From Candidatus Hydrogenedens sp. (lineage in GTDB: Bacteria > Hydrogenedentota > Hydrogenedentia > Hydrogenedentales > Hydrogenedentaceae), in NCBI GenBank assembly GCA_035378955.1, contig DAOSUS010000001.1, forward strand, positions 20,580 to 84,579: a stretch of 64,000 nt of DNA, read 5' to 3'. Below are positions 5,435 to 49,753 of this stretch, piece by piece; the stretch's first letter is position 1, and the number at the start of each line of letters is the position of its first letter. The position numbers were made by a program, and so were the translations under genes. The notes under the pieces are model-generated. The model had not been told where the DNA came from, did not search any database, and was given only the letters and a program-made list of their open reading frames with translations.

Positions 5435-7336
5435 TTATGGCACAGAGATAGTTTGCATTTCTTTTTGGGTTAACCCTGCGTAATCTGCAACTATGAAGGT
5501 AATTGTATGTGTGCCGGAGGGTAAATCTTCATCTTGTTCCCAGCGTAATATTCCACGAGGTCCATCGTATTCACTTAATAGCCATTTCTGGTCACAGAAT
5601 ATTTCTGCCCGTGCTATACCACTTCCTATATCAGAAATTACAGCCGATATAGAAGGCCTTTTTGTTGGCTGTTTCGCATCTTTGTTAATAGCGATATTTG
5701 TGATTTGTGGCGGTTCATCGTCTCTTATTAAGGCAAAAGTGCCCCAATCAGATACTTTACCAATAACAAAATCCCTTTCCTTTTGAGAATCTATTCTTGA
5801 CCATGAAGACCCGGATTTCCGATATAAATGTATTCGTTCTTGAGCTTGGACATTATTCCGAATCCGCATTTTAATCGTCACAGCCTCTGCTATCGGCATG
5901 TTGTAAGGTTCTATTTTCCATATATTCGAAGCAATTGTCAAACCTTTAGGAACTTTCTGTGAAGATACCGGAGAAATAGATAGCCAGAGAATACCGTAAG
6001 AGATATGGGAAGGTACATCTATCTGAAAATCATTTAATACGATAGGTGCCATTTTACTTTGTGTCTTAACAGCATACACACTTTTTTCCCATACAGGCAT
6101 AGATGGATGCGAAACTCGAAAAGTATATTTCCCTGATGCCGTAGGTTTCCAGGGAAGTTCGTATATATTACTTGTCCGCTGGACAGGTTTTAGTGAAACA
6201 GTTCCCTGTTCCGAAGTGCAGGTAATTTCCGGTGCTTCTTTGGAAGATGTTGAGGCTAACAAAATCTCTAACACAAGGAATTCCGGCAAATAAGAAATAG
6301 AGATATCACTTTTTTCTATTTTTTTGTTCAAACGATTCGCAGGATTCCCTGTGATATAAAGCGGAACCTGTGTCTTATTTCCCTTAAAATCCTCTACTTC
6401 TATCTGTATATGCTCGTCATCTTCTATGGAAAGCCATTCTTTCCTCACCTGTTTGTAATTGGGCGACTGATTTCCCTGCCACTGCCACAATAACCAATAA
6501 ATCGGATTCGAAATGTAGGGATAAAAAGATACAATAGCATCCCTATAGGTATTGTAATCAAGGCGGTCTTGCTGAATGGTAGATAAAACAGTATCCGTCG
6601 TTTTCAATGAAATTCGGTAAGGTCCCAACTTGCAGGTATCCGATTCATTGTCAATAGTGGAAACACCAAATCCTATTGCTCCTTTTGCGTTAATTAATAT
6701 AGGTAATGCGGTCTTTTCGGTGATAGGGATTTCCAGCGGCAGACAGCGTCCATTAATGGTTGTATCCATACTTCCGGGAATAACGAGGAGGGATGTTATT
6801 TGAGGTTTATTACGGTCAATCCATCGGAAACCATATTCCCATGGGTTCAGGCATGTAATTCCATCTTTTGTGCGAAGTTCAAAGTGCAAATGAGGTGCTT
6901 TTGTCCCGGACTGACCTGTATATGCAATCAAAGCCCCTTTTTTCACAGGCAGTTCGTTTTCTTTTAGTGTCAGGTCCACTGTGAAGGACTCTTTTTGATG
7001 TTGCACCTTTCGCAAATAAGACTGATACGGCTCTGCAAATGAATGGAGATGTGCATAAATCCCCATAATTCCAGAATGAAATTGAATATATAACACACGA
7101 CCATATCCCCAGGGACTACAACGCATTCGTGCCACATAACCATCATCTATGGCATAGACAGGCGTTCCAATGGTAGCACGATAATCTACACCCATATGAA
7201 AGCGTCCATCCCGATATTCGCCAAAGGAAGAGGTAGCAAATAAGTCTCCTTTCAGAGGAAGGATAAAAGACTCCCCTGCTGAAAGGAAAGGGATACATAC
7301 AAAAATAAATGGAATGAATAAAGGTAAAAACTTCAT
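5435..7336 (-). CDS. Secreted M23-family (LytM-type) metallopeptidase with a large C-terminal domain
   Basis: Signal peptide; HMGVDY (HxxxD) and HLH (HxH) zinc motifs near the N-terminus. Its stop overlaps the SurA-like gene start by 1 nt. Confidence 0.8.
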   Translation of the reverse strand: MKFLPLFIPFIFVCIPFLSAGESFILPLKGDLFATSSFGEYRDGRFHMGVDYRATIGTPVYAIDDGYVARMRCSPWGYGRVLYIQFHSGIMGIYAHLHSFAEPYQSYLRKVQHQKESFTVDLTLKENELPVKKGALIAYTGQSGTKAPHLHFELRTKDGITCLNPWEYGFRWIDRNKPQITSLLVIPGSMDTTINGRCLPLEIPITEKTALPILINAKGAIGFGVSTIDNESDTCKLGPYRISLKTTDTVLSTIQQDRLDYNTYRDAIVSFYPYISNPIYWLLWQWQGNQSPNYKQVRKEWLSIEDDEHIQIEVEDFKGNKTQVPLYITGNPANRLNKKIEKSDISISYLPEFLVLEILLASTSSKEAPEITCTSEQGTVSLKPVQRTSNIYELPWKPTASGKYTFRVSHPSMPVWEKSVYAVKTQSKMAPIVLNDFQIDVPSHISYGILWLSISPVSSQKVPKGLTIASNIWKIEPYNMPIAEAVTIKMRIRNNVQAQERIHLYRKSGSSWSRIDSQKERDFVIGKVSDWGTFALIRDDEPPQITNIAINKDAKQPTKRPSISAVISDIGSGIARAEIFCDQKWLLSEYDGPRGILRWEQDEDLPSGTHTITFIVADYAGLTQKEMQTISVP

Positions 7337-8487
7337 TACTTCTTTTTTTTCTTGGGTGTTGTTGCCTTTGTTGAAGGTTGTGTCGGCGTAGAAGTTTTAT
7401 CTGCAGAGGCTTTGTCCTGACGGTATAATTTTTCTAAAATAGGGTCAAACGCAAGGAATATTTTTACTTTCTCCGAATCGTTCAAATAGGGTTTACAAAA
7501 CTCAAATATCTTTTCATCTGTCTTCTGTTCGGTTAAAATATTTTTTATCTTTTCTTTGACCTGCTCAAAGGTAACCTTCTCTTCTGCCTCGCGTTCTAAC
7601 AATTTGAACAAATGCCATCCCAGGGGGCTTTTTAAAACAGGACTGAGGTCGCCCGGCTTCATGGTGGGAAGAACCTGTTTCAAAAATGGAGGCAAGGCTT
7701 CTGTAGGTATCCATCCCATATCGCCACCTTTTTGATGGTCCGGTGCTTCGGAAACAGAACGGGCAACCGCTTCAAAACTTTCCCCTGCTTTTATTCGTGC
7801 TAAAGCTTTCTCTACCTCTTTTTGTGTCTCCTGCCATGCCTTTTCATCGGCGGTTTTTGCATTGGGTTTTGGTTGGCGAAATATCTGTTGTAGATGCACC
7901 CGCGAGGGCTTCATGAAAAGGTCAGGATTGCTGTCATAAAACTTTTTTATTTCATCATCCGTAACGGTTATCTTGTTCTCACTCGCTAAGGCTTGTTTCA
8001 TCTTTTTTAATATTAGATTTTTACGCGTCCTTTCGCGAAAAGATTCTACCGTCTCATTTTTGGCTTTTAAGATTTCCTCCATACTGGGAGGGTTCTTTCC
8101 TGCTTTACGGGCATCTTCCTGAATTTCCTTAATTTGCTCATCAACCGCTTTCTTGACCTCATCCTCTGTTACCGAATATTTCCGTTTCAGTGCTTCCTGA
8201 TATAAAATTTCCCGTTGGGCTAAATTAGTAACACAACGGATAGCAATACGGACACGGTCCTCATCCTTAACATCTTTTTGTCCTGTCCCTGCCACATATT
8301 CCAGTAGTTCCATATGATACCTCATCAAAAATTCTTCCTTTGATATAGGCTTACCGAGAACCAACGCTACCGGTCCATCTGGAACTGATTTCTCCACAAT
8401 ATCCATCCTGGACAGGTCGGGAGCCTGCGCCCATAGATATGAAACTAAAATTACGGAAATAACAATAAAAAGCAATTTGCGAAACAT
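7336..8487 (-). CDS. SurA/PpiD-like periplasmic chaperone with a parvulin PPIase domain
   Basis: Signal peptide; parvulin signature GGDMGWIPTEALPPFLKQVL...GWHLFKLLER; S/T/P-rich C-terminal tail ending in five lysines (KKKKK). Confidence 0.75.
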   Translation of the reverse strand: MFRKLLFIVISVILVSYLWAQAPDLSRMDIVEKSVPDGPVALVLGKPISKEEFLMRYHMELLEYVAGTGQKDVKDEDRVRIAIRCVTNLAQREILYQEALKRKYSVTEDEVKKAVDEQIKEIQEDARKAGKNPPSMEEILKAKNETVESFRERTRKNLILKKMKQALASENKITVTDDEIKKFYDSNPDLFMKPSRVHLQQIFRQPKPNAKTADEKAWQETQKEVEKALARIKAGESFEAVARSVSEAPDHQKGGDMGWIPTEALPPFLKQVLPTMKPGDLSPVLKSPLGWHLFKLLEREAEEKVTFEQVKEKIKNILTEQKTDEKIFEFCKPYLNDSEKVKIFLAFDPILEKLYRQDKASADKTSTPTQPSTKATTPKKKKK

Positions 8488-8516
8488 ATAACTATCCTTA
8501 CTGTTTAAAATTATAT

Positions 8517-8858
8517 TTATTCCTGTGTCTTATCTGTTGTCTTTTCTGTTTCTGGGGTAATTTCTTTCGGCGTCGTTTTTATAATCAACAATCCATAATA
8601 AGTCAGGATACCTGATATACCATAAGTAATAACAAAAATTAATGCACATACAATAAACATCGAACCTATAGCAACAGAATATCCACTCAATTGAATCATT
8701 AGAAATACAAATAGGGCAATGAGAGTAAAAAACAACCCGACAATCATTGCAATACGATTCGGTTCCAGATGAACAATAACCTGCTTTCTCGTGTCCAAAA
8801 GAGGTCTTACATCTGGATAATCCAGGTTATGAATGTTATTTGTATTATCCTTCTTCAC
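8517..8858 (-). CDS. Small integral membrane protein (hypothetical)
   Basis: 113 aa with two or three hydrophobic helices; first gene of the SurA-like/M23 operon. Confidence 0.4.
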   Translation of the reverse strand: MKKDNTNNIHNLDYPDVRPLLDTRKQVIVHLEPNRIAMIVGLFFTLIALFVFLMIQLSGYSVAIGSMFIVCALIFVITYGISGILTYYGLLIIKTTPKEITPETEKTTDKTQE

Positions 8859-9252: not shown

Positions 9253-9987
9253 ATGTTCAAAGGAAAATTATTTTTTTTATTAGCCGCTTGTATTTTTTGC
9301 TTCACTCTTATCTCATACGCACAAAATAACACGGATACATCCACCATTCCACCTATTCAGCAAAATCTCACATTATGGGATATGATAAAGGCAGGTGGGG
9401 TAATACTCTGGATAATTGGGGTTTTGGGCTTTATTGGATTGGTATGGGCGTTTTATCTCCTGTTGACATTAACACCCCGACGAGAACTACCATCAACCCT
9501 CATTCGACGATTGTTTCATTTGCTACAAGCAGGGGATTACAAAGGGGTACTGGAACTTTGTGAAGGACGGGATAAACTAATTGCCAAAATGGTTTTTGCC
9601 GGTGTGAAATTGGTTGGACACGACCGCTATGTCATTCAAGATGCTATGGAAAGTGAAGGGGAACGAGGCGCAAGTATTTTATGGCAACGCATATCTTATT
9701 TAAATAATATTGCGGTTTTAGCCCCTTTGTTAGGTCTATTAGGGACGGTATGGGGCATGATGCAGGCTTTCGGGGCTATTGCATTTAATGATGCTCAGGT
9801 GAAAGGGCTTACCATGGCATACAGCGTAGCCACAGCGATGGTAACTACCGCAGGAGGTTTGGTCGTTGCTATTCCCGCTATGGCAATTTATTTCTATCTA
9901 CGGGGTAGAGTAAATCGAATTATTGCAGAAGTAGAAGCCATCGCCAGTGAAATGGTAGAACTTATTTTGAGAGGAACACGCGTATGA
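9253..9987 (+). CDS. exbB: MotA/TolQ/ExbB proton-channel protein
   Basis: Characteristic C-terminal TM region LGLLGTVWGMMQAFGAI...TTAGGLVVAIPAMAIYFYL; 4-nt overlap with the following exbD. Confidence 0.85.
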   Translation: MFKGKLFFLLAACIFCFTLISYAQNNTDTSTIPPIQQNLTLWDMIKAGGVILWIIGVLGFIGLVWAFYLLLTLTPRRELPSTLIRRLFHLLQAGDYKGVLELCEGRDKLIAKMVFAGVKLVGHDRYVIQDAMESEGERGASILWQRISYLNNIAVLAPLLGLLGTVWGMMQAFGAIAFNDAQVKGLTMAYSVATAMVTTAGGLVVAIPAMAIYFYLRGRVNRIIAEVEAIASEMVELILRGTRV

Positions 9988-10478
9988 GAATTCGTCGGAA
10001 TTATGAAAATGAACCCGAGCCCATTCAAATGGCTCCATTGATTGATATTGTCTTTTTGACCCTTGTTTTTTTTATGGCAACTACCGTATATGGCGTTCTG
10101 GAATCCGAAATTGACATTACTTTACCAACAGCAGAAACTTCTGTGCCAACAACACGTAGCCAGGGAGAAATTTATATTAACTTAAAAGCCGATGGTTCTA
10201 TTGTCGTTAATAATCGTTCTGTATCCCTATCCGAATTGCAGGAGGTATTGAACAAAGTGTCCCAATTCTTCCCCGGCAGTTCCGTCATTATCCGTGGAGA
10301 CCAGAGTGCTATGTTAGGCAATGCAATACGAGTTTTAGATTGCTGTAGAAAAGCCCATATACAGAATGTAGCCTTTTCCGCAATTAATGAAAAACAAACA
10401 TCTAACTCCGAAGGCACTGTCAAAGCAGATACTCCCACAGATACACTTGCTCCTACCCCAGAGACCCCAAAACAATAG
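9984..10478 (+). CDS. exbD: ExbD/TolR biopolymer transport protein
   Basis: MAPLIDIVFLTLVFFMATT N-terminal TM signature of ExbD/TolR; translationally coupled to exbB. Confidence 0.85.
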   Translation: MRIRRNYENEPEPIQMAPLIDIVFLTLVFFMATTVYGVLESEIDITLPTAETSVPTTRSQGEIYINLKADGSIVVNNRSVSLSELQEVLNKVSQFFPGSSVIIRGDQSAMLGNAIRVLDCCRKAHIQNVAFSAINEKQTSNSEGTVKADTPTDTLAPTPETPKQ

Positions 10479-10491
10479 ACAGGATTGACGC

Positions 10492-12879
10492 ATGATATTT
10501 ACGAAGTATTTATATAAATTGCTTGTTATTCATTTACTATTGGTATATAGTTTTGCATGGACACAATCCCCAGATGCCCTTTCCGATGAAAACACACAAC
10601 TCGATTTTGCTAACGGTCTTTATAGCCGTCAGTTTTTCAAAGAAGCCATCGATGAATATAAAAAGTTTATTGCCCAATATCCCAATTCTCCTAAAATTGG
10701 CGAAGTCTATCTCCGTTTAGGGAAATCTGCTCTCATAGAGAAGCAATATGAAACGGCTATTAGTGCCTTTGACCAGGTAATTAGTAAAGTCTCTGACGCC
10801 AACCAACGAATGGAAGCAATACTTCGCAAAGGGGAATGTTTTTATTATCTCAAACGCTGGGCAGAATGCGGTGAAACATTAAAACCTTTGATTGAGGAAA
10901 CAACACCTCCCGACTATCGTCCTCGGGCTATGTATTTCTACGCCCGTTCTCTTACACAAACTCAAAACTTTGAGTCCGCAATATCTGTATTACAAAACAT
11001 GATAAAAGATTTTCCAGAATATTCATTGACACCCTTCGCAAAATATGTTTTAGGAACTATCTATACCCGTCTTAATCAATTAGAAAATGCAGTATCGGTC
11101 CTTTCTGAAGTGGCATCTAACGAAAAGGTAGACCCTCAATTGCGTATGGAGTGCAACTTCCGCGTTGCAGAGATATACTCCCAGTTAGGCTGGTATGAAA
11201 GCGCCATGAATGCTTATCAAACACTTAAAACACAATTTAAAGAAGGTCCCTATAAAGAAAAATCGGATTTTGGATACTTATGGACACTCTATCAGGCAAA
11301 GAAATTCGCAGAAGCGATAAATGAAGGAAAAACTTTCCTTCAGAATTATCCTCAATCGGAAAAGAAACCTTTTGCCATGTATATCCTTGCCAACTCATTG
11401 CTGGAACAAAACCTGTTAGATGAAGCCCTGTCTTTCTATAATTCCTTACGACAACAATACGCTGATACCTCCTACGCAACTGAAGCACTCTACAAAATAG
11501 CATGGATACACTTTTTAAAGAATGACTCTACCACGGCAAAAACGACTGTAACAGAGTTTCTGGATAAAGCCCGTGAGTCTCCATTGCGACCCGATGCTTA
11601 CTTTTTATTAGGTTCATTATATACAGCCGAAGGGAATTATGAAGATGCGATGGAAGAGTTCCAAATGGTATACGAGAAATATCCAACCTCTAAATTTGCC
11701 CCTGAGGCATTATATAAATCGGCAGAATGTGCAGAATTGTTAGGCATTACGAAACCTGCAATTCAATTATACAATCGTTTTATCCAGACCTATCCCCAGC
11801 ATACATTAATTGTTTCTGCTTATCTTCGTTATGGCGATTTACAGGGCAAAGATGGAAATTGGGAAGAAGCATTGAAAACATATCTCCAAGCAAAGGAAAT
11901 TTCGGAAAATAATCCCCTACAAGAGCAGGTATTTATACGACTGGCTAGCTGTTACGAACAATTGCATAAAAGAGAAGAAGCCTTTCAAACCTATCAAGAT
12001 TTTATAAATAAATTTCCGCAATCCCAATACGCCCCGGATATGAAATTAAAATTAGGAACTTATTATCTAAAAGAAAAGAAAGACCCTATTAAATCCATTG
12101 ATTCCTTGCAAAGTTTATTATCTCAAAATCCTCCCCCAATAATTGCAGGACAAACATGGCTGGCAATTAGCATCGCTTATTATGAAGTAAAAGACTACGA
12201 AAAATCTGCAGAAGCATTATTTAAAACCATTTCAGATTATCCTCAGGTTACGGTTGGAGAAGAACAGTTTGCCTGGTTAGCCCAGTATTATCTGGATGCT
12301 AAAAAATGGGACCTGGCTCGTCAGGTGTTAAAACGAATGCAAGAGGTATTGAAAGATTATCCCGCTCCTCAAAGATTACAGTTCCGTTATGCAGAATGTA
12401 TCCATAATTTAGGAAAGTTAGATGAAGCCATCAAAGAATACCAAAAGGTTGTAGATATGGCTCCCTCTTCCACATCTGCGACAGAATCTTTATATCGCAT
12501 AGCCCAGATTTATGAACAAACAAATCAGCTTCCTCAAGCACTGGAATTTTATGAACGCTGTGCTAATAATGGAGGAAGTGAAACGAGCGCCCGTGCCCAA
12601 TTTCGACTCTCAGAAATTTACGAAAACAAAGGTGAGATTGAAAAAGCCGGAAAAAATTATCTGAAAGTGGCTATCCTTTATCTTCATCCCGAACTTTCTC
12701 CCGAAGCATTATGGCGTTCTGGAAATTGTTATTTAAAGATTAATGAAAAAGAAAACGCTCAAAGAGCGTTTCAAGAACTATTAGACGATTTTCCTTCGCA
12801 TCCTCTGGCGGAAAAGGTAAAAAGTATGTTGTCCAGCGAAAAAGAAAATACAGCGGCTTTATCGACAGAACCGAGGTAG
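10492..12879 (+). CDS. Large tetratricopeptide-repeat protein (secreted/periplasmic)
   Basis: 795 aa with a signal peptide and many TPR-like helical repeats (YxxA...G...A patterns throughout). Confidence 0.8.
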   Translation: MIFTKYLYKLLVIHLLLVYSFAWTQSPDALSDENTQLDFANGLYSRQFFKEAIDEYKKFIAQYPNSPKIGEVYLRLGKSALIEKQYETAISAFDQVISKVSDANQRMEAILRKGECFYYLKRWAECGETLKPLIEETTPPDYRPRAMYFYARSLTQTQNFESAISVLQNMIKDFPEYSLTPFAKYVLGTIYTRLNQLENAVSVLSEVASNEKVDPQLRMECNFRVAEIYSQLGWYESAMNAYQTLKTQFKEGPYKEKSDFGYLWTLYQAKKFAEAINEGKTFLQNYPQSEKKPFAMYILANSLLEQNLLDEALSFYNSLRQQYADTSYATEALYKIAWIHFLKNDSTTAKTTVTEFLDKARESPLRPDAYFLLGSLYTAEGNYEDAMEEFQMVYEKYPTSKFAPEALYKSAECAELLGITKPAIQLYNRFIQTYPQHTLIVSAYLRYGDLQGKDGNWEEALKTYLQAKEISENNPLQEQVFIRLASCYEQLHKREEAFQTYQDFINKFPQSQYAPDMKLKLGTYYLKEKKDPIKSIDSLQSLLSQNPPPIIAGQTWLAISIAYYEVKDYEKSAEALFKTISDYPQVTVGEEQFAWLAQYYLDAKKWDLARQVLKRMQEVLKDYPAPQRLQFRYAECIHNLGKLDEAIKEYQKVVDMAPSSTSATESLYRIAQIYEQTNQLPQALEFYERCANNGGSETSARAQFRLSEIYENKGEIEKAGKNYLKVAILYLHPELSPEALWRSGNCYLKINEKENAQRAFQELLDDFPSHPLAEKVKSMLSSEKENTAALSTEPR

Positions 12880-12883
12880 ATTT

Positions 12884-14710
12884 ATGTCCAGGGCGAACAT
12901 AAAAAATAATCGTTCTATATCTTCAGGAACCATCGAATTCCTGAGGAGTAAACGCGTTCGCTTCTGGGTTAGCGTTATCATTAGCCTCATCTTATACTTC
13001 TCAATCATTTATTCCTCTCAATATATCCCCTTATTTGTAACAGGACCGAATCGAATTCCTCTAAACATCCGCGTCAAATTAGTTGATGAAAAAATAACTG
13101 TTTCCCAACAAATGGAGGAACCTATCAGCACATCCCTGTCTACCCGTCCTATTTCGTTCCAGAAATTTATAGATGAAATACTTCCATCTACAGAGATACC
13201 CGAACCTCCTCATGCTTCATCCTTACAAAAGGAAGAATTAGCCAAACAGGCCGTAACAGAACTTATTGACCGACCCACAGAAACTTCTACACCGGACGAA
13301 GTTATCCAGCAAGTAGAAGAGCGAATCCTTATGATTGAAAAAGAATCCGAAAAGGATACCGTAGATGTTGCCCGTCGAATACTACCGCCACCCGAAGAAA
13401 ATATAATAAAACCCGACGAAACGCCTACCTTCTCCCTGGATAACACAGTCCTATCCTCACAGGGAACGCCAATTTCCTCGTCGGATATACCGCGTATAAT
13501 TGGGACTTCACCCGCTACCGAACAAACCTCTTCGGAAACTACAGAAACAAATCAAGCCCCCGTTGTATTAGTACCCGAATTAGAACCCATAGAACCCCCC
13601 ATCCCAATAGAACAAGTTTTAGAACAGGAAATTATTGAACAACCTATCATGGAAGAAACTCAAAAAGAAAAAGAAAGCCGTCCGTATGAATTCTGGGATG
13701 ACCTATTTGAATTACAGTTAAAAACATATTACGAACAAGATAAAAAGCAGGGGTTCTTTCAATTGGTTATCTCCCCTAAAAAAGAGGCTAAAATCACTCC
13801 ATTGCAAAAACAGGTTGCTTTTATTATTGACAGTTCCGCAAGTATAGGACAGCGGAAATTAGACCAAACAATAAAGGGCGTTCGTGAGGCATTGCAGCAA
13901 CTTCGTAAGGAAGACCTTTTTAATATTATTCTATTCCGTGAACGGGCTTCATTTTTTGCAGAAGGATATATAAAGGCAACATCAGAAAATAAAAATTCGG
14001 CTCAAAAATTTTTGCAACAAATACCTTCAACCGGACAAACCGATGTTTTTAACTCCGTTCGCCAAATAATACAAATTCCTACAACCCCCGGATTGCCTAA
14101 TATCCTCTGGTTATACTCCGATGGAAAACCGACTATTGGCCTTCGCGATACCCGTGCCATTATTGCTAATCTTACATTAGAAAATCAGGGCAAATATGAA
14201 ATATTTACAACAGGTGGAGGAAACACGGTTGACCGATACCTTCTGGAATTGCTTGCTTACTTAAATCGTGGGTTTTGTGTAATTCGGAACAATATAGACC
14301 AGTTTTCCACAGCGATACCGCAAGCATTCCAAAAAATACAAAACCCCATACTTATTGATGTATCTATGGACTTTGGTGCAATACCTCGCGATAACATATA
14401 TCCTTTCATCTTTCCTAACTTTTATCAGGGTGTCCCTGTTTCTATCTTCGGAAAGTTTAATCCGGAGACCCAGAAAAATTTCGTATTCCGTCTTCAAGGA
14501 AATGCGGCAGGCAAACGAAAGGAAATTATTTTCCGCGCCGATTTATCCCAATCCAGTTCGGGCGATTTTGATATTGCACAAAAATGGGCTTTTCATAAGG
14601 CTTTTTATATAATAGGTAGAATCGTCCGTGAGGGCGAAAAACCTGAATTATTACAAATATTAAACGAACTTAAAGAAAAATATAACATTAAAACAACTTA
14701 TACGCCATGA
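12884..14710 (+). CDS. Membrane-anchored protein with a TonB-like N-terminal TM and Pro/Glu-rich linker, followed by a von Willebrand factor A domain
   Basis: TM at about residues 25-45; Pro/Glu-rich linker (PEPPHASS, PPPEENIIKPDETP, PELEPIEPPIPIEQ); VWA MIDAS motif VAFIIDSSASIG. Confidence 0.7.
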   Translation: MSRANIKNNRSISSGTIEFLRSKRVRFWVSVIISLILYFSIIYSSQYIPLFVTGPNRIPLNIRVKLVDEKITVSQQMEEPISTSLSTRPISFQKFIDEILPSTEIPEPPHASSLQKEELAKQAVTELIDRPTETSTPDEVIQQVEERILMIEKESEKDTVDVARRILPPPEENIIKPDETPTFSLDNTVLSSQGTPISSSDIPRIIGTSPATEQTSSETTETNQAPVVLVPELEPIEPPIPIEQVLEQEIIEQPIMEETQKEKESRPYEFWDDLFELQLKTYYEQDKKQGFFQLVISPKKEAKITPLQKQVAFIIDSSASIGQRKLDQTIKGVREALQQLRKEDLFNIILFRERASFFAEGYIKATSENKNSAQKFLQQIPSTGQTDVFNSVRQIIQIPTTPGLPNILWLYSDGKPTIGLRDTRAIIANLTLENQGKYEIFTTGGGNTVDRYLLELLAYLNRGFCVIRNNIDQFSTAIPQAFQKIQNPILIDVSMDFGAIPRDNIYPFIFPNFYQGVPVSIFGKFNPETQKNFVFRLQGNAAGKRKEIIFRADLSQSSSGDFDIAQKWAFHKAFYIIGRIVREGEKPELLQILNELKEKYNIKTTYTP

Positions 14711-16368
14711 TGATACTCGCAAGTAAATGGATTGAATTTCTTCTCTCAAATTCTACAGAACAGAAGAGATTTCTCTCTAACACCTATGGTAATGCAGGGC
14801 AAGAACGAATTAAATTAATTATTCAGACCTTGCAAAAATTTATTGATACATTGGGTGATAAACATGTTTTCATCACAAGATGTCCCGGTAGAATAAACCT
14901 TCGTGGAATGCATATAGATACACACGGGGGGTTTTTAAACCTGATGACCATTGAACAAGAACTTGTTTTAATAGGACACCCCCGTGATGATGATAAGTTT
15001 TGTATATACAATTTAGAAACCAAACACAAACCCTTTCTTTCCTCTTTCCGCTCTTTGCAAAAGGAATATCCCCTCCAATCCTCATGGAAAGATATTTGCC
15101 ATCATGCTCAAAATCGCACCGATACTTCCAGCCATTGGCACCAATATATTATCGGCACACTTCTTCGTTTTGCCCAACAAACAAAAAGACCTCTGACAAC
15201 AGGTATCGAAGTTGTCGTGGGTGGGGATATTCCCGAAGGTTCTGCATTAAGTTCCTCGCATGCTTTATGTATTGTTTTGCTTCAGGCTCTTATGTATAAC
15301 AGTCATGATAATTTTGAGATAACAACTCAATTGAAAATGGTTCAGGATGCGGAATGGTTTACCGGAGCAAGAAGTGGACTTAGTGACCAGACAGCGGAGT
15401 TATTAGGGAAAAAGGATACTTTATTAGGCGTTCGTCTTAATCCCGAAACAGCAGAAATATTAGAAATGAATTATCATCCCTTTCCGAACGATGTTTCTGT
15501 AATTATTACCAATTCCAGAACGCAACGAGACATCAGTTCAACCCATGCTGTTTCCTATATTAAAAATCGCTTCGCCTATTCCGTAGCATTAACGATATTA
15601 AAGGAAATTTTGAAATCACAAGGAGTAGACGCAGATACATTAAAAAATTTCCAGTCTCTTGCCGATTTTTCACCAGAACGACTTGGTGGAATTCGAAACC
15701 TTTATACACTATTTCGTGCCATTCCTCATGCTTTGCCCGTCAAAACATTACTTGAAGATTTTGATATTCCCGGTATTCATGAAACTTTCGAACGATATTA
15801 CGGACATCTTCCCCAAGAAGAACATCCCAAAGTAGTTCCTATACGCGGACCTTTAGTTTTTGGTATTTGCGAATCTATTCGAGCCCGATATTTCTTCGAA
15901 GCCATACAACAGGGCGACATATTAATGGCAGGCTATTTAATGACATTAGGACATAATGGCGACCGTATTCTTGATACCTCAGGCAATCCCTTCCATCGAG
16001 AAGTAACCGACGATATGTTATTCGTGTATGAAGACCTTCAAATTGCACCTTACTCCCTCATAGGTGATTTCGGTGCCAGCACCCCTGTCCTCGACAAATT
16101 AGTGGATATAGCGAACGAGAACGGGGCTTTGGGCTCATCCCTCACAGGTGCAGGATTAGGCGGAGTTGTATTAAGTCTTTGCAAAAAGGAAGATACCCCT
16201 ACCATAAAAAAGGCATTACAAAACTGGCTTTGCTCGGATGAGTATGCACAACTTTTAAACCGCCCATCACCACTCTCACCTGAAGAATCTGAAAAATCTA
16301 TGTTTGTCCATAACTCCACTCAAGGGGCAAATGTAATACCTGCTCCGAATTTATCTCTTGTTCACTAA
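14707..16368 (+). CDS. GHMP-family sugar kinase (galactokinase-like), with long extensions
   Basis: GRINLRGMHIDTHGG (galactokinase-type signature) and VVGGDIPEGSALSSSHAL (the GHMP ATP-binding PxGSGLSSSA motif). 4-nt start overlap with the VWA gene. Confidence 0.75.
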   Translation: MMILASKWIEFLLSNSTEQKRFLSNTYGNAGQERIKLIIQTLQKFIDTLGDKHVFITRCPGRINLRGMHIDTHGGFLNLMTIEQELVLIGHPRDDDKFCIYNLETKHKPFLSSFRSLQKEYPLQSSWKDICHHAQNRTDTSSHWHQYIIGTLLRFAQQTKRPLTTGIEVVVGGDIPEGSALSSSHALCIVLLQALMYNSHDNFEITTQLKMVQDAEWFTGARSGLSDQTAELLGKKDTLLGVRLNPETAEILEMNYHPFPNDVSVIITNSRTQRDISSTHAVSYIKNRFAYSVALTILKEILKSQGVDADTLKNFQSLADFSPERLGGIRNLYTLFRAIPHALPVKTLLEDFDIPGIHETFERYYGHLPQEEHPKVVPIRGPLVFGICESIRARYFFEAIQQGDILMAGYLMTLGHNGDRILDTSGNPFHREVTDDMLFVYEDLQIAPYSLIGDFGASTPVLDKLVDIANENGALGSSLTGAGLGGVVLSLCKKEDTPTIKKALQNWLCSDEYAQLLNRPSPLSPEESEKSMFVHNSTQGANVIPAPNLSLVH

Positions 16369-17463
16369 AAATGATTTAATCCCTTCGACAACATACGCTA
16401 CCTCTTCAGGAGTCATTTCGGGATAGATAGGTAACGCCAACACCTCCTGAGAGGCTTTTTCTGCTTGCGGATATTTTTCCTGTGATGAAGCAAATGGACG
16501 GAAGCAGGGTTGCAGATGAATTGGAATGGGATAAAACACAGCCGTAGAAATACCTCGCTCCTGAAGAAACTGCCGTGCCTTATCACGGTCAGGAATACGA
16601 ATAACATATTGATGATATATAGCATAACTACCTTCCCGTTCCACAGGAAGTTGCAATTCCGAAATTTCTTTCAAATGTTCCGTATAATAACGGGCTATCT
16701 CCCTTCGTTTCTCATTCCATTCCTGCAAATAACGAAGTTTTACACTTAATATACCTGCCTGTAATGTATGTAAATGGCTGTTATAACCAATGCACTCATG
16801 CTCATAAGTCTTTTTAGAGCCATGACAACGCAATAACAAAATTCGTTCTGCTATTTGTTTATCATTTGTCGTAATCAATCCCCCTTCTCCCATAGCTCCT
16901 AAATTTTTTGTCGGGTAAAAACTAAAAGCACCTGCATCACCCCAATTGCCTGCCTTTTTTTCAAATAAATGGGCTCCCATGGCTTGGGCAGAATCCTCAA
17001 GAATAGAAAGGGAATATCGTTTCGCTAAACTTACAAAAGCTCCCATGTCTACACATTGACCATACAAATGAACAGGAAGTAAAATTTTCGTTCGCTCGGA
17101 AATTTTCTTTTCTACTTCTTGGGGATTTAAATGATAGGTATCAGGTTCAATATCTGCAAACACAGGGATACCTCCCGCCAACACAATGCTACTGGCAGTA
17201 GCGATAAAAGAAAACGGTGTAGTAATTACCTCATCACCCGATTGTAAACCTAAAGCCTTTAATCCAATTACCAGTGCATCCGTTCCCGAGCCCACACCTA
17301 TAGCATAAGAACATTGAATAAACGCCTTTACCTCTTCCTCAAACCGTGCAAGAACATTACCCCCCCGAAATTGTTGTGTTTCCAGAACCTCCTCTATGGC
17401 TTTTAAAATCTCTTCTTTCATGTGTCTATATTGAGCCTTTAAGTTTAACATCGGAACTTGCAT
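16351..17463 (-). CDS. DegT/DnrJ/EryC1/StrS-family PLP-dependent sugar aminotransferase
   Basis: Family-typical N-terminus (MQVPMLNLKAQY...), SFYPTKNLGAMGEGG lysine motif. Its 3' end overlaps the convergent kinase gene by 18 nt. Confidence 0.85.
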   Translation of the reverse strand: MQVPMLNLKAQYRHMKEEILKAIEEVLETQQFRGGNVLARFEEEVKAFIQCSYAIGVGSGTDALVIGLKALGLQSGDEVITTPFSFIATASSIVLAGGIPVFADIEPDTYHLNPQEVEKKISERTKILLPVHLYGQCVDMGAFVSLAKRYSLSILEDSAQAMGAHLFEKKAGNWGDAGAFSFYPTKNLGAMGEGGLITTNDKQIAERILLLRCHGSKKTYEHECIGYNSHLHTLQAGILSVKLRYLQEWNEKRREIARYYTEHLKEISELQLPVEREGSYAIYHQYVIRIPDRDKARQFLQERGISTAVFYPIPIHLQPCFRPFASSQEKYPQAEKASQEVLALPIYPEMTPEEVAYVVEGIKSFLVNKR

Positions 17464-17632: not shown

Positions 17633-19150
17633 TTACATTTTTTGCATACTATTCAAGAAATCAGCGTTGTTCTTTGTTTTCTTTAACTTTTCAATCAGCA
17701 ATTCTGTTGCTTCAACAGTATCCAGCGGACTTAATACACGCAGTAATAACCAAATTTTTTCAAGGTCTTCTTTAGCAATAAGCAATTCTTCTTTTCGTGT
17801 CCGTGAAAGCATCACATTAATTGCTGGGAATATCCGTTTTTCCATCAAACGACGATCTAAATGGATTTCCATATTCCCCGTGCCTTTAAATTCTTCAAAG
17901 ATAACATCGTCCATACGACTGCCTGTATCAATTAATGCGGTGGAAAGGATAGTTAAACTTCCACCTTCTTCTACCTTTCTTGCAGCACCGAAAAACCGTT
18001 TCGGTTTTTGTAATGCGTTGGCTTCAATACCACCCGATAACACTTTTCCGCTGGATGGCACAAGCACATTATAGGCACGGGCAAGGCGTGTCATTGAGTC
18101 CAACAAAATTACCACATCTTTTTTATGCTCCACAAGTCGTTTGGCTTTGTTCAAAACCATCTCTGCCACCTGAACATGCCTATCCGGGGGCTCATCGAAA
18201 GTAGATGCAATAACTTCCGCAGCAACGGAACGCCTCATATCCGTAACTTCTTCAGGTCTTTCATCAATAAGCAATACAATAATAGTAACCTCCGGATGAT
18301 TTTTGGTAATACTATTAGCTATTTTCTGCAGCAAAACGGTTTTCCCGGTAAATGGTGCGGCAACAATAAGCCCGCGTTGTCCTTTGCCGATAGGGGAAAT
18401 AAGGTCCATAATCCGCATGGCTATTTCATCCGAGGTCGTTTCAAGATAGAACCGTTCATTGGGATGAAGGGGAGTTAAACTATCAAAAAGCAATCGCTGA
18501 TGAGCAATTTCGGGAGGGTCCCCATTTACAGATTCTACCTTCAACAGAGCAAAATACCGTTCCCCTTCTTTCGGTGGGCGAACATGCCCACGGATAGTAT
18601 CCCCCGTCCACAATCCAAATTTGCGTATCTGAGACGGGGACACATATATATCATCCGGTCCCGGAAGATATGAAGCATCCGGAGAACGCAAAAAACCATA
18701 ATTATCAGGCAATATTTCCAGTGTCCCTTCACCAACAACAGAACCGGAATGCTCAAAACTTTTTTGTAAAATCTTGAAGATAAGGTCTTGTTTTTTTAGT
18801 GAACCTGGGTCATCAATTGCCAAATTTCCCGCTATTTCACTTAATTGAGGGACAGACATCTTTTTCAAATCTGCAATCGAAATTTCAGGTCCGTCTGTCC
18901 GAATTTCATCAAATTCCTCTTCTGCCACATCCAGCACAGGAGGCCTTTTCGTTGGATTTTGATGATTGTTTCGATTGTTCCGATTGTTTCGGACATTTCG
19001 GTTTGAATTTTGATGAGAGTTTGAACGATGTGAGTAAGTCTTTTTGTTGCCCATAGTTCCAAACTTCCGTTGTTCATGTTGTTTGTTGTTTACTGTTGTT
19101 CGATAATCATTCATAAAAAATTCCTTATTTTCTAATAGCGAAAGACACAT
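17633..19150 (-). CDS. rho: Transcription termination factor Rho with an N/Q/R-rich N-terminal extension
   Basis: Near-identical blocks to canonical Rho (YFALLKV, Walker [40 protein letters not shown]). About 70 aa low-complexity N-terminus ([18 protein letters not shown]). The exact start is uncertain (Mets at 19150, 19114, 19054). Confidence 0.9.
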
Positions 19151-19178
19151 TCGCTATTATTTCCAAATCTTACATATA

Positions 19179-30273: not shown

Positions 30274-30873
30274 ATGGCGCAAGAACTAACCACTAAATCA
30301 GTATTATACGAAAGACAGTTAGATGCAAATTTTGCCAACCTAATACAATCGATGCCTGGAGGCGAAAATTTGAGAAGGTGTATTCAATGTGGGACTTGTA
30401 GTGCTACTTGCCCATTTTCCCATGTTATGGATTATACACCTCGCAAGATTATCTATTTAATTAGGGAAGGCTTTAAAGAAGAAGTCATGTCCAGTTTTAC
30501 ACCGTGGCTTTGTGCAAGTTGTTTTTCATGTAGAGTCCGCTGTCCAAAGGAAATTAAAATAACGGATTTAATGTATCTAATAAAGAGAGAAGCAATAAAG
30601 GATAACCATTATCCCCAAAAAGCACCTATTGTGCTTCTAACAAAAGAATCGGTGAAAATGATTCATAAAAACGGTAGAATTTCTGAAAGTTATTTAATGG
30701 GAATTGTTCTACTTAAAGTTAGTTTTCTAAAGTTGCTTCGCATGTCGGGTTTAGGATTAAAAATGCTGTTAACAGGTAGATTTACCTTAATCCCAGAAAA
30801 AATAAAAAGTCGTGGAGAACTAAAGAAAATATTAGCCTTCTCAAATAAAAAAGTAGAGGAAAACAGTAAATGA
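30274..30873 (+). CDS. hdrC: Heterodisulfide reductase subunit C-like (2x[4Fe-4S] ferredoxin domain)
   Basis: Two CxxCxxCxxxCP motifs (CIQCGTCSATCP and CASCFSCRVRCP); first gene of a translationally coupled six-gene operon. Confidence 0.8.
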   Translation: MAQELTTKSVLYERQLDANFANLIQSMPGGENLRRCIQCGTCSATCPFSHVMDYTPRKIIYLIREGFKEEVMSSFTPWLCASCFSCRVRCPKEIKITDLMYLIKREAIKDNHYPQKAPIVLLTKESVKMIHKNGRISESYLMGIVLLKVSFLKLLRMSGLGLKMLLTGRFTLIPEKIKSRGELKKILAFSNKKVEENSK

Positions 30874-31739
30874 AATACTTTTACTATCCAGGTTGCTCTT
30901 TAAGAGGTATGGGAAAGGCATATGAAGAATCATGGTTAAAAGTGTGCCAAAAAATAGGTCTTCAATTAGAAGAAGTTAAAGATTGGAATTGTTGTGGTTC
31001 TACAACTTACCTTGGGTTCGATGAAATTAAATCATTAGTTTTGGTTTCAAGAAACCTTGCTATGTTAGAGAAAGAAGGGGGTAGTGAGGTTATTACACCC
31101 TGTATTGCTTGTTATTATCTCTTTAATAGGACAAATCATAATTTAAGGGACTATCCTCAATTAAAAACAGAAACAAATAAGATGTTACAAGAAGTAGGAT
31201 TAACCTATTCTGGAAATGTCAAAGTTAGGCACCCTTTAGATATCTTAGTTAATGATGGCTGGATGGAGAAAATATCTCAAAACATAGAAAAGCGACTGGA
31301 GCGTTTTAAAGCTGTTTGTTATTATGGCTGTCAACTTCTCAGACCCTATTGCGAGTTTGATAACCCGAGCAATCCTAAAAATATGGATATATTAGTTGGC
31401 CTCACAGGAGTTGATGTTTTAGATTATCCATTAAAGACTAAATGTTGTGGAGCAATTATAACTTCAAATATTCCCGAAAAAGGACTTGAACTTGTTTATG
31501 TTTTATTAAAGGAAGCAAAGAAAAGAAATGCGGATTTTATCGTGGTTACATGTCCTTTATGTCAATTTAATTTAGAATTTCAGCAAGAAAAGATTATGAA
31601 AATATATGAGGAAGATATTGGGTTACCCATATTGTATTACACACAAGTTCTGGGGTTGGCAATGGGTCTCTCCTTAAAAGAGTTAGGAATTAGACGTTGT
31701 TTAACACTAACACCAGAATTTGAGCGAGCTTTAATATGA
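30870..31739 (+). CDS. hdrB: Heterodisulfide reductase subunit B-like (two CCG domains)
   Basis: Cys-rich CCG motifs (NCCGSTTY..., CYYGCQ...KCCGA); 4-nt overlaps on both sides. Confidence 0.8.
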   Translation: MKYFYYPGCSLRGMGKAYEESWLKVCQKIGLQLEEVKDWNCCGSTTYLGFDEIKSLVLVSRNLAMLEKEGGSEVITPCIACYYLFNRTNHNLRDYPQLKTETNKMLQEVGLTYSGNVKVRHPLDILVNDGWMEKISQNIEKRLERFKAVCYYGCQLLRPYCEFDNPSNPKNMDILVGLTGVDVLDYPLKTKCCGAIITSNIPEKGLELVYVLLKEAKKRNADFIVVTCPLCQFNLEFQQEKIMKIYEEDIGLPILYYTQVLGLAMGLSLKELGIRRCLTLTPEFERALI

Positions 31740-33727: not shown

Positions 33728-34196
33728 ACAAAACTGGGAACCTAAAATCATTGCGTTTTTCTGTAATTGGTGTACTTATACCGCTGCAGACCTGGCAGGA
33801 GTATCTAAGTTATCCTATGCCCCCAATGTGAGGATAATTAGAGTAATGTGCTCAGGTAGAGTAGACCCTCAATTTGTATTGTCTGCCTTTGCGAATGGAG
33901 CCGACGGCGTTTTAATCGGGGGCTGTCACCCTGGAGATTGCCACTATAGCGAGGGAAATTATAAAACTCTCCGAAGAATCTCTTTGCTAAAGAAAATGTT
34001 AACTCAATTTGGAATTGAATATGATAGGGTGCGACTGGAATGGATATCCGGTGCAGAAGGTGAAAAGGTAAAGACTGTTATAAACGAAATGACAGACAAA
34101 ATAAGAAAATTAGGACCACTAAATCTACCTGAAAAATTTATTACCTGGGATAGAGAATTAGAAAAACTAGACAGAGAGTCTGAATATATAAATTGA
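33720..34196 (+). CDS. mvhD: Methyl-viologen-reducing hydrogenase delta subunit
   Basis: MvhD/FlpD pattern (IIAFFCNWCTYTAADLAG...RVMCSGRVDP...GGCHPGDCHY). The start is likely the ATG at 33720, giving an 8-nt overlap with hdrA. Confidence 0.8.
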   Translation: MSEQNWEPKIIAFFCNWCTYTAADLAGVSKLSYAPNVRIIRVMCSGRVDPQFVLSAFANGADGVLIGGCHPGDCHYSEGNYKTLRRISLLKKMLTQFGIEYDRVRLEWISGAEGEKVKTVINEMTDKIRKLGPLNLPEKFITWDRELEKLDRESEYIN

Positions 34197-34208
34197 GGAA
34201 ATAGAACA

Positions 34209-35186: not shown

Positions 35187-35189
35187 AGT

Positions 35190-45179: not shown

Positions 45180-45206
45180 GTTTAGTAATTTACTTTCTTT
45201 CTTCTT

Positions 45207-46031: not shown

Positions 46032-46218
46032 ACCTTCTTTTCAATTAAATTATTAACAATTTTTCCACAAACACTGTTAATAAATCAAAAAACAATCAAA
46101 AAATCATCTACAATATGCATAAATAAAGACTTATAAATAAAAAACTTAACTAAAATAAGTAGAGATTTTAATAAAGAAACAAATAAAACTAACTTTATTC
46201 ACAAGTTTTCCACAAATA

Positions 46219-47325: not shown

Positions 47326-47600
47326 ATTTTTCCTCCAACAGTTACTTTCTTCTTCTTACTTCTTATTATATTTAAAAATATCGTAGTAGTAACAGTAGTA
47401 TATGTTTATTTATGGATAACTATAAAAGATTATCCTTTTTTCATATTCAAAAGCAACTTTTTATTGTTGATATGTTATGAATTTTTTTGTTGATAAATTT
47501 ATCTTTTCCACAAAAGTAAAAAATAAAAAATTTTCATGTTAGTATTTTGTTAATAAAAATAAAAAAATTCACAAGAAAGTAACAACTTTTCCATAGTAAA

Positions 47601-49565: not shown

Positions 49566-49753
49566 ATTTCCTGCTCCCACATGATTACAAAACAAATTTA
49601 ATCATATCAATGGTTGTATTAAAAGAAATTATATATGCAATATACAAATTATAGAAGAAAAAAGTCAAGAATTTTTTTGTTATTATATTATCTTATTGCA
49701 AAACGGCATGAATAATCAGTAATATTCTTACAGAATTTTTATAAGGACTGGTA

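What the first reader, a model, noticed from the sequence alone, without database searches (positions are those of the whole stretch)
9253..16368. ExbB-ExbD motor operon with a giant TPR protein, a TonB-like anchored VWA-domain protein and a translationally coupled GHMP sugar kinase
Five genes are co-oriented and mostly translationally coupled: exbB/exbD with a 4-nt overlap, 13 nt and 4 nt gaps before the next two genes, and a 4-nt overlap between the VWA and kinase genes. The fourth protein has the architecture of TonB (N-terminal TM plus a Pro/Glu-rich periplasm-spanning linker) but carries a VWA/MIDAS domain (DSSAS) in place of a TonB C-terminal domain. A cytoplasmic GHMP-family kinase with long extensions is fused into the same operon. 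I do not recognise this combination as a described Ton/Tol or Bat-type module. It may be a PMF-driven envelope machine that uses a VWA domain as its periplasmic/outer-membrane contact.
Basis: partly seen in the sequence, partly recalled or inferred. Interest (0 to 1): 0.65.

Follow-up and report, generated by a model that had tools for sequence, protein, structure and literature searches.

The report
Proton motor with VWA-tipped TonB-like arm
A Hydrogenedens chromosome carries a tightly conserved four-gene set: a TolQ/ExbB-TolR/ExbD proton motor, a giant TPR protein, and a membrane-anchored protein built like TonB but ending in a metal-binding VWA domain. This kind of machine was first proposed from sequence analysis in 2025 and has never been tested, and the neighbouring sugar kinase is only an occasional passenger.

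Summary

The organism is Candidatus Hydrogenedens. The first four genes form a real module. In 47 of 47 non-redundant related loci with enough upstream DNA, the order ExbB-ExbD-TPR-VWA is kept, down to about 30% VWA identity. The kinase is adjacent in only 18 of 49 loci and is not core.

The VWA protein has no cryptic TonB C-terminal domain. Its C-terminal 340 residues fold like inter-alpha-inhibitor heavy chain, and the MIDAS residues are invariant in 60 diverse relatives. Its membrane helix carries the TonB/TolA S-x3-H signature across the family, but this clade has Tyr in place of His. A conserved F/I-R/K-V "motor box" candidate follows the helix.

The concept is not new. Mol Biol Evol 2025 (msaf138) proposed TonB-like vWA "force transducers" next to tolQR and a TPR gene. 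The published Tichowtungia exemplar is only marginally similar, lacks a DxSxS MIDAS motif, and sits beside two TolR genes.

Verdict: a new variant of a recently proposed, experimentally untested kind. Function is unknown and interest is moderate.

The parts
9253..9987 (+). ExbB/TolQ-type proton-channel subunit (244 aa). It has an N-terminal signal peptide and a short periplasmic extension.
   Evidence: PF01618 2.3e-28. The best NCBIfam hit is TolQ at 82 bits against ExbB at 54, both below the equivalog cut-offs. T165 and T199 align with the pore threonines of E. coli TolQ. Present upstream in 47 of 47 non-redundant loci.
9984..10478 (+). ExbD/TolR-type subunit (164 aa), present as a single copy.
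   Evidence: PF02472 7.2e-25. D21 in 'PLIDIVF' aligns with E. coli ExbD D25. It overlaps exbB by 4 nt.
10492..12879 (+). 795-aa secreted TPR protein. It contains about 8 CpoB/YbgF-like (BamD-like) TPR units, and a conserved 'Q-x-DFANGLY' motif follows the signal peptide.
   Evidence: TIGR02795 tol_pal_ybgF 296 bits in 8 stretches, and YfiO/BamD-like hits. A TPR gene lies directly upstream of the VWA gene in 83 of 84 loci. The N-terminal motif is conserved across loci, and there is no consistent lipobox.
12884..14710 (+). TonB-like anchored VWA protein (608 aa): cytoplasmic N-terminus, TM helix, ~220-residue acidic Pro/Glu/Thr/Ser linker, and an ITIH-like VWA module.
   Evidence: The family holds 1144 50%-identity clusters at E<=1e-30.
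12950..13021 (+). TM helix (residues 23-46) with S34-x3-Y38 in the register of the TonB/TolA S-x3-H motif.
   Evidence: AF2 helix at residues 23-46. Of 151 family representatives, 109 have S-x3-H and 22 have x3-Y. The alignment register is shown. H, Y and N all occur at this position among cassette loci.
13067..13090 (+). Candidate 'motor box' strand I62-R-V-K-L-V-D-E69, located ~16 residues after the TM helix.
   Evidence: The consensus 'F-[RK]-V' is conserved at this position across the 60-sequence alignment. V64 is invariant in close relatives. It is not predicted as a strand in the monomer model, where pLDDT is below 50, so this assignment is an inference.
13676..14707 (+). Folded C-terminal module (residues 265-608): two beta-strands, a VWA Rossmann fold, a beta-sandwich and two helices.
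13829..13843 (+). MIDAS motif D316-S-S318-A-S320. T386 and D413 complete the site.
   Evidence: D316, S318, S320, T386 and D413 are invariant in 60 diverse family members at a mean column identity of 25%.
14707..16368 (+). Galactokinase-family GHMP sugar kinase (553 aa). It is an accessory, clade-specific operon neighbour.
   Evidence: Pfam GalKase_gal_bdg, GHMP_kinases_N and GHMP_kinases_C. TIGR00131 scores 132 bits, below the 226 cut-off. The best PDB sequence matches are galactokinases. It is adjacent in 18 of 49 non-redundant loci.
16351..17463 (-). Convergent DegT/PseC-type sugar aminotransferase whose 3' end overlaps the kinase gene by 18 nt. It travels with the kinase, not with the core module.
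   Evidence: NCBIfam PseC-like 262 bits, below cut-off. It recurs in 14 of 75 non-redundant loci, always after the kinase.

Best explanation
Genes 1-4 encode one envelope machine. ExbB and ExbD form a TolQR/ExbBD-type 5:2 proton-driven stator in the inner membrane.

The 608-aa protein is the motor's transducer arm. Its single TM helix (S34-x3-Y38, the family equivalent of the TonB/TolA S-x3-H) docks on the outside of the ExbB pentamer. The short conserved I/F-R/K-V segment after the helix engages the periplasmic ExbD dimer. The ~220-residue acidic, proline-rich linker spans the periplasm. The ITIH/integrin-like VWA head uses an intact MIDAS metal site to grip an acidic residue of a partner, so that the proton-motive force pulls on that partner.

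The secreted 795-aa CpoB/BamD-like TPR protein is an obligate periplasmic partner, either a scaffold or the MIDAS ligand itself.

What is shown: the domain identities, the conserved catalytic and MIDAS residues, the invariant synteny, and the TonB-type helix signature in the family. What is inferred: physical coupling, force transduction and the ligand. The biological role is unknown; an outer-membrane or cell-wall tethering role like Tol is my leading guess.

The GHMP kinase and the convergent DegT aminotransferase form a sugar-metabolism pair. They are co-transcribed with the module in Hydrogenedens but are not part of the machine.
For: - **Synteny.** ExbB-ExbD-TPR-VWA is kept in the same order in 47 of 47 non-redundant loci with >=4.8 kb upstream (54 of 54 with duplicates). 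The TPR-to-VWA spacing is mostly -3 to +14 nt. The flanking genes differ between loci.
- **No other recurrent partners.** All-vs-all clustering of ORFs in 75 loci finds no other recurrent family except the kinase (28 loci) and DegT (14 loci).
- **Motor residues are intact.** ExbD D21 corresponds to ExbD D25, and ExbB T165 and T199 correspond to the TolQ pore threonines.
- **TonB-type helix.** The TM helix is S-x3-H in 109 of 151 family representatives and Y in 22. It is followed by a conserved F-[RK]-V motif.
- **Adhesion site.** MIDAS residues D316, S318, S320, T386 and D413 are invariant in 60 sequences at 25% mean identity.
- **Fold.** The model has a TM helix, a disordered linker and a confident ITIH-like VWA module.
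- **Published precedent.** An independent paper proposed the same architecture class, with AF3 models placing the helix at the TonB site (PMC12204202).
Against: - No experiment exists for any member. The paper states that no deletion phenotypes have been reported.
- In this protein the key His is Tyr, so the one residue considered essential in TonB is absent.
- The motor-box segment is not predicted as a strand in the monomer model.
- Distant homologues in Kiritimatiellia and Verrucomicrobia, which do have S-x3-H, sit next to rho with no motor gene nearby. Adjacency is therefore not universal.
- A test for co-variation between the H/Y state and ExbB or ExbD columns did not rise above phylogenetic background.
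- No outer-membrane partner gene is linked.
Confidence: 0.6

Rival explanations
1. ExbB and ExbD are an ordinary Ton or Tol stator that serves a canonical TonB or TolA encoded elsewhere. The TPR and VWA proteins are a static, inner-membrane-anchored periplasmic scaffold or adhesion pair, co-expressed with the motor but not pulled by it.
For: This protein lacks the His. Kiritimatiellia homologues are unlinked to motors. tonB genes are often unlinked from exbBD (general knowledge). The co-variation test gave no signal.
Against: The four-gene order is kept in 47 of 47 loci with near-zero spacing across very diverged sequences. Most family members have a TonB-type S-x3-H helix and a post-helix conserved motif, which a passive anchor would not need. 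The 64-kb window holds no TonB, TolA, TolB, Pal or TonB-dependent receptor.
Confidence: 0.22
2. All five genes, kinase included, form one functional unit. The cytoplasmic GHMP kinase supplies or senses a phospho-sugar needed by the envelope machine.
For: A 4-nt ATGA overlap joins the VWA gene to the kinase gene here and in all close relatives. The kinase is adjacent down to 33% VWA identity in some lineages (L014, L031, L040, L075).
Against: The kinase is adjacent in only 18 of 49 non-redundant loci, displaced by 1.7-3 kb in 4, and absent from the flank in 27. It travels with a convergent DegT aminotransferase, which points to a sugar-nucleotide or envelope-glycan pathway. It has ordinary galactokinase motifs.
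Confidence: 0.1
3. It is a Bat-type (Bacteroides aerotolerance) or MoxR-VWA module, or an anti-phage system of the Zorya (MotAB-like) kind.
Against: No BatA or BatB NCBIfam hit was found for the VWA protein. No MoxR or DUF58 family recurs among 75 loci. There are no PADLOC hits for any of the five proteins. The module lies in a conserved chromosomal, housekeeping context.
Confidence: 0.04

Closest known systems
vWA 'force transducers' next to tolQR-like motors and a TPR gene (Mol Biol Evol 2025, msaf138, PMC12204202; exemplar Tichowtungia aerotolerans)
   Same: Both have a TMH, a disordered or Pro-rich linker and a C-terminal vWA fold. Both are adjacent to a TolQ/ExbB-TolR/ExbD motor and co-occur with an uncharacterised TPR gene. 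The TM helix carries an S-x3-H signature across the family, and a short conserved segment follows the helix.
   Different: Sequence relation to the published exemplar is marginal: hhalign aligns 47 columns at 85% probability, and BLASTP gives E 0.003.
- The exemplar is 476 aa with a ~100-residue linker and reads 'FIDADKR' where DxSxS would be, so it has no canonical MIDAS. The window family is ~590 aa, ITIH-like, and has an invariant MIDAS.
- There is one ExbD here, against two heterologous TolR genes in the exemplar locus.
- The order here is motor-TPR-vWA, against TPR-motor-vWA.
- This clade has Tyr in place of His.
- Hydrogenedentota is not mentioned in the paper.
TonB / TolA (Ton and Tol-Pal systems)
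   Same: Both have an N-terminal single TM helix, a periplasm-spanning linker and a globular head. Both are encoded beside ExbBD or TolQR. The family helix is S-x3-H. CpoB-like TPR repeats sit next door, as in tol-pal.
   Different: There is no TonB_C or TolA domain III, so target binding by beta-strand addition is replaced by a MIDAS site. TolB, Pal and TonB-dependent receptors are not linked.
Inter-alpha-inhibitor heavy chains / VIT-VWA proteins (including the 'marine proteobacterial sortase target' TIGR03788)
   Same: These are the best structural and sequence match for residues ~265-608, which comprise the VWA fold with MIDAS plus flanking beta-sandwich and helices.
   Different: Those proteins are secreted or surface proteins with an N-terminal VIT domain. 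Here the N-terminus is a TonB-like anchor and linker, and no VIT Pfam hit was found.
TolQ-only 'trans-pore-helix' vWA proteins (second family in msaf138)
   Same: A VWA head is tethered to a TolQ-like motor.
   Different: That family lacks tolR/exbD and has an Asp-bearing ExbD-like helix. Here ExbD is present and the VWA protein's helix has no Asp.
Bat (aerotolerance) operon BatA-E
   Same: Membrane-anchored VWA proteins occur together with TPR proteins of unknown function.
   Different: There are no MoxR or DUF58 neighbours, no BatA or BatB family hits, and a proton motor is present instead.

Membership tests
TonB/TolA force transducers | C-terminal TonB_C (PF03544/PF13103) or TolA domain III | tested here: not met
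TonB/TolA force transducers | N-terminal TM helix with the SHLS motif, including the essential His | tested here: not met
   The window protein has S34-x3-Y38, so His is replaced by Tyr. In the wider family 109 of 151 have S-x3-H.
TonB/TolA force transducers | Encoded with or served by an ExbBD/TolQR motor, with a periplasm-spanning linker | tested here: met
   Adjacency holds in 47 of 47 non-redundant loci. The linker, residues 47-280, is 15% Glu and 12% Pro and is disordered in the model.
vWA force transducers (msaf138, family 1) | TMH, disordered or Pro-rich linker, and a C-terminal vWA fold | tested here: met
vWA force transducers (msaf138, family 1) | Synteny with tolQ/tolR-like motor genes and a TPR gene | tested here: met
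   The gene order and the ExbD copy number differ from the PVC pattern described.
vWA force transducers (msaf138, family 1) | SHLS-type TM helix with conserved His, and a 'motor box' strand after it | tested here: inconclusive
   The register is conserved but this protein has His to Tyr. The conserved I/F-R/K-V motif is present but is not predicted as a strand in the monomer model.
vWA force transducers (msaf138, family 1) | Sequence homology to the Tichowtungia exemplar | tested here: inconclusive
   hhalign gives 85% probability and E 6e-6 over only 47 columns of the VWA core. BLASTP gives E 0.003. The exemplar lacks DxSxS.
TolQ-only trans-pore-helix vWA proteins (msaf138, family 2) | No tolR/exbD gene, and a VWA protein helix carrying the proton-binding Asp | tested here: not met
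   ExbD is present with D21. The VWA protein's helix, residues 23-46, has no Asp.
MotA/TolQ/ExbB and ExbD/TolR stator | Family domains plus the pore Thr residues (ExbB) and the TM Asp (ExbD) | tested here: met
   PF01618 and PF02472. T165 and T199 align with the TolQ pore threonines, and D21 with ExbD D25. Scores fall below the NCBIfam equivalog cut-offs for tolQ, exbB, tolR and exbD, so the proteins cannot be assigned to Tol versus Ton.
Tol-Pal system | tolB and pal linked to tolQRA, with CpoB | tested here: not met
   No TolB or Pal occurs in the window or among the recurrent families of 75 loci. Only CpoB-like TPR repeats are present. The rest of the genome was not searched.
Bat aerotolerance operon | BatA/BatB-type VWA proteins with MoxR ATPase and DUF58 neighbours | tested here: not met
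ITIH / VIT-VWA proteins | VWA with MIDAS plus flanking beta-sandwich, and an N-terminal VIT domain | tested here: inconclusive
   The fold and MIDAS are met. No VIT Pfam hit was found. Only two strands precede the VWA fold.
Galactokinase (GHMP) | Galactose-binding signature and GHMP N and C domains, scoring above the equivalog cut-off | tested here: inconclusive
   All three Pfam domains are present. The motifs PGRINL, PEGSALSSS and GLSDQ can be read in the sequence. TIGR00131 scores 132 bits against a 226 cut-off, so the protein is a family member whose sugar specificity is unknown.
Anti-phage defence (Zorya and others) | Match to a PADLOC model | tested here: not met
   No hits for any of the five proteins.

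The most novel reading that the evidence does not exclude
This cassette is the Hydrogenedentota counterpart of Tol-Pal. It would be a PMF-driven, MIDAS-dependent outer-membrane or cell-wall tether acting at division. The VWA head would reversibly grip the giant CpoB-like TPR protein, or an outer-membrane partner, through a metal-coordinated acidic residue instead of beta-strand addition. A Tyr-for-His motor contact would show that the 'essential' TonB histidine is dispensable in nature.
Probability: 0.15. Interest if true: 0.75.

Novelty: new variant of a known kind. Interest (0 to 1): 0.45.

Why it matters
Only TonB and TolA are established arms of ExbBD/TolQR motors, and both grip their targets by beta-strand addition. 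A third kind of arm, ending in an integrin/ITIH-like metal-dependent adhesion domain, would widen what 5:2 proton motors are known to do in the envelope.

This window gives that idea its cleanest comparative support so far:
- a large family of more than 1,000 sequence clusters;
- an invariant MIDAS;
- a four-gene order kept in every locus that could be checked;
- natural His-to-Tyr and His-to-Asn variants at the motor-contact position.

It also defines concrete mutants and complexes to test. It does not reveal the function. The kinase that made the operon look exotic is only a neighbour.

Tried and rejected
- **The search for homologous proteins with a 60-sequence alignment.** The word index returned only the same 14 close relatives.
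- **Genome-contig scan.** The patterns used were narrow and returned only Hydrogenedentota-type records. The phyletic range of the cassette outside that phylum is therefore undetermined.
- **Taxonomy of distant cassette loci (L083, L088-L095).** Cluster look-ups gave no names for these. Named distant homologues from Phycisphaeraceae and Kiritimatiellia do not match any cassette locus closely.
- **Direct link to the published family through Kiritimatiellia homologues.** Their genes sit after coaE-rho with no motor nearby. The exemplar sequence recovered from the paper's supplement is only marginally similar.
- **Co-variation between the H/Y state of the helix and ExbB or ExbD columns.** The top columns are scattered, including the VWA C-terminus. 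The best membrane position, ExbB 62, has MI 0.55 against a 95th percentile of 0.50. This is indistinguishable from shared ancestry.
- **Promoter and terminator scans.** The counts were no higher than in shuffled sequence.
- **AFDB50 fold search.** The library was unavailable.
- **Defence and Bat readings.** Both were rejected.
Full report
**1.

The five ORFs lie exactly where stated, all on the + strand. Their spacings are a 4-nt overlap, a 13-nt gap, a 4-nt gap and a 4-nt overlap.

Pfam identifies them as follows:
- MotA_ExbB, 2.3e-28;
- ExbD, 7.2e-25;
- a 795-aa protein that is TPR from end to end;
- a 608-aa protein with a VWA domain at residues 310-465;
- a 553-aa protein with the galactokinase signature and both GHMP domains.

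NCBIfam adds three points. ExbB and ExbD score slightly better against TolQ and TolR than against ExbB and ExbD, but fall below every equivalog cut-off. The TPR protein contains eight CpoB/YbgF-like units (TIGR02795, 297 bits). The C-terminal 325 residues of the VWA protein resemble the VIT-VWA 'sortase target' family. The DSSAS motif is at residues 316-320.

Named homologues place the window in Candidatus Hydrogenedens, phylum Hydrogenedentota.

**2. What is conserved and what is not.**

In named Hydrogenedentota records the whole set recurs while the upstream flanks differ. The set is ExbB, ExbD, TPR, VWA, kinase and a convergent DegT aminotransferase. It is kept down to 33% VWA identity.

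A profile of the VWA protein run against 1.84 billion representative proteins finds 1144 clusters at E<=1e-30. Most are 540-610 aa with the same layout.

A metagenome scan with a 60-sequence alignment returned 80 loci. I called ORFs in all 95 loci and searched them with the six window proteins. The results are:
- Every locus with at least 4.8 kb upstream has ExbB-ExbD-TPR-VWA in that order. This is 54 of 54 loci, or 47 of 47 after removing duplicates.
- 83 of 84 loci with at least 300 bp upstream have the TPR gene directly upstream, mostly -3 to +14 nt away.
- The kinase is adjacent in 18 of 49 non-redundant loci, lies 1.7-3 kb away in 4, and is absent from the flank in 27.

All-vs-all clustering of ORFs from 75 non-redundant loci finds no further recurrent family except DegT, which follows the kinase in 14 loci. 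The module therefore has four genes. The kinase-DegT pair is a lineage-specific neighbour.

**3. Anatomy of the VWA protein.**

AlphaFold2, run with nine relatives, gives three regions: a TM helix at residues 23-46, a low-confidence region at 47-262 with a few short helices, and a confident module at 265-608.

In a 60-sequence alignment with 25% mean identity, the five MIDAS residues D316, S318, S320, T386 and D413 are invariant. Metal-dependent ligand binding is thus the selected function of the head.

**4. The anchor is TonB-like in more than topology.**

Among 151 family representatives, 109 have an S-x3-H helix, the core of the TonB/TolA SHLS motif. Another 22 have Tyr at the His position, and the remainder are N-terminally truncated fragments.

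The window protein reads S34-L-I-L-Y38 and belongs to the Tyr group. Two cassette loci have Asn. From memory, and not checked here, E. coli TonB H20N is functional, so polar substitutes are plausible.

About 16-25 residues after the helix, the family keeps an F/I-R/K-V motif; the window has I62-R-V64. A further motif, 'S-R-P-x-S-x-x-x-L-L', follows. The first motif is in the position of the 'motor box' strand that binds ExbD or TolR, as cited. In the monomer model it is not a strand, so this assignment is an inference.

The motor looks competent. ExbD D21 aligns with E. coli ExbD D25, and ExbB T165 and T199 align with the TolQ pore threonines.

**5. Comparison with what is known.**

The one relevant paper in the library is Mol Biol Evol 2025;42:msaf138 (PMC12204202). 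[quoted passage not shown] These lie next to tolQ-like and tolR-like genes and an uncharacterised TPR gene. They were found in Proteobacteria, PVC, Bacteroidetes and Rhodothermaeota, with no phenotypes known. Hydrogenedentota is not mentioned.

I recovered the Tichowtungia exemplar from the paper's supplement. It is 476 aa, has S-x3-H and a ~100-residue linker, and reads 'FIDADKR' where DxSxS would be. Against the window family it aligns over only 47 columns (hhalign probability 85%; BLASTP E 0.003).

The window system is therefore the same architectural idea built on a different VWA family. It is ITIH-like with an intact MIDAS. It has one ExbD rather than two TolR genes, the order motor-TPR-vWA, and Tyr in place of His.

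It does not fit three other readings:
- It is not the paper's second, TolQ-only family, because ExbD is present and the helix has no Asp.
- It is not a Bat module, because there are no MoxR or DUF58 neighbours and no BatA or BatB hits.
- It is not a known defence system.

**6. Limits and counter-evidence.**

More distant S-x3-H/VWA homologues in Kiritimatiellia and Verrucomicrobia hit the window profile at E 4e-63. They are encoded after coaE-rho with no motor nearby. Adjacency therefore holds for the nearer relatives only.

A mutual-information test between the H/Y state and ExbB or ExbD columns did not exceed phylogenetic background.

The 64-kb window contains no TonB, TolA, TolB, Pal or TonB-dependent receptor. 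The rest of the genome could not be searched, so I cannot say whether this is the only such motor.

Hints towards an envelope or division role are weak:
- the TPR repeats are CpoB-like;
- a divergent M23-peptidase/SurA-like pair lies upstream in the window;
- murC-ftsQ-ftsZ lies just upstream of the cassette in 7 of 75 loci.

**7. Verdict.**

It is wrong to include the kinase, and wrong that the combination is undescribed.

The most likely mechanism, at confidence 0.6, is a PMF-driven stator pulling a TonB-like arm. The arm's MIDAS head grips an acidic ligand, possibly on the co-encoded TPR protein. The function is unknown.

I rate this a new variant of a recently proposed, experimentally untested kind, with interest 0.45.

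Noticed in passing
L014 1648-5437; also L020, L040, L058, L070, L074, L076: In 7 of 75 non-redundant loci the end of the dcw cluster (murC-ftsQ-ftsZ in L014) lies 1.2-2.8 kb upstream of exbB. The FtsZ sequences among these loci are well diverged. This may hint at a division-linked role like Tol-Pal, or it may be one lineage's gene order.
   Followed up: partly
L096-L099 (Kiritimatiellia/Verrucomicrobia); window 17633-21890: Distant S-x3-H/VWA homologues sit in a conserved array of 5'-3' exonuclease, Dpy19-like, coaE, rho and VWA, with only 6-30 bp between rho and the VWA gene. In the window, rho and polA also lie within 3 kb of the cassette but on the opposite strand. This could be an ancestral linkage or a coincidence.
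   Followed up: partly
window 16351-17463 (-) and 21976-24974 (-): A DegT-type aminotransferase and a Gfo/Idh/MocA oxidoreductase lie close together, the latter wedged between lpxB and an lpxA-like acyltransferase. This resembles the GnnB/GnnA pair that makes UDP-GlcNAc3N for 2,3-diamino lipid A (recalled from memory, not tested). DegT may therefore belong to lipid A synthesis rather than to the kinase.
   Followed up: no
L033 and L034 (VWA gene N-termini): Two cassette loci have Asn at the TonB-His position ('SMLANGIL', 'ALLLNGAF'), alongside many with Tyr. The position tolerates H, Y and N in nature.
   Followed up: partly
window 10492-10640 and TPR genes of loci L001-L095: The TPR proteins share a sharply conserved motif 'Q-x-DFANGL[FY]-x-R' directly after the signal peptide, and they have no consistent lipobox. 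Its conserved Asp is a speculative candidate for the MIDAS ligand.
   Followed up: no
window 5435-8858 (-): The divergent upstream operon encodes a 633-aa protein with an N-terminal M23 peptidase domain (weak DipM/EnvC/Pgp3-like hits), a SurA-like PPIase, and a 113-aa ORF with no family hit. These are envelope functions, but they are not conserved next to the cassette in other loci.
   Followed up: partly
window 30274-36662 (+): A heterodisulfide-reductase-like (HdrC/B/A), MvhD and NiFe-hydrogenase small and large subunit cluster. This is consistent with the hydrogen metabolism that gives Hydrogenedens its name.
   Followed up: no
window 36887-39805 (-): A 972-aa ORF with no Pfam hit at E<=1e-5.
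   Followed up: no
window 60001-64000: The GC content drops to 0.29-0.32. Two adjacent, overlapping N6/N4 DNA methyltransferase genes lie at 62143-63033 and 63005-63808. This may be a restriction-modification or mobile island.
   Followed up: no
window 44001-49595: dnaN (46219-47325, -) sits in a low-GC stretch (0.32-0.34) with the strongest negative GC skew in the window, and the cumulative skew turns near 50 kb. The replication origin may be nearby.
   Followed up: no
L009, L012, L014 (genome contigs record titles): Three MAG records titled 'uncultured Nitrospirales bacterium' carry the Hydrogenedentota-type cassette. L012 is the same contig as a Hydrogenedentota-like hit. The taxonomic labels look unreliable.
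   Followed up: no
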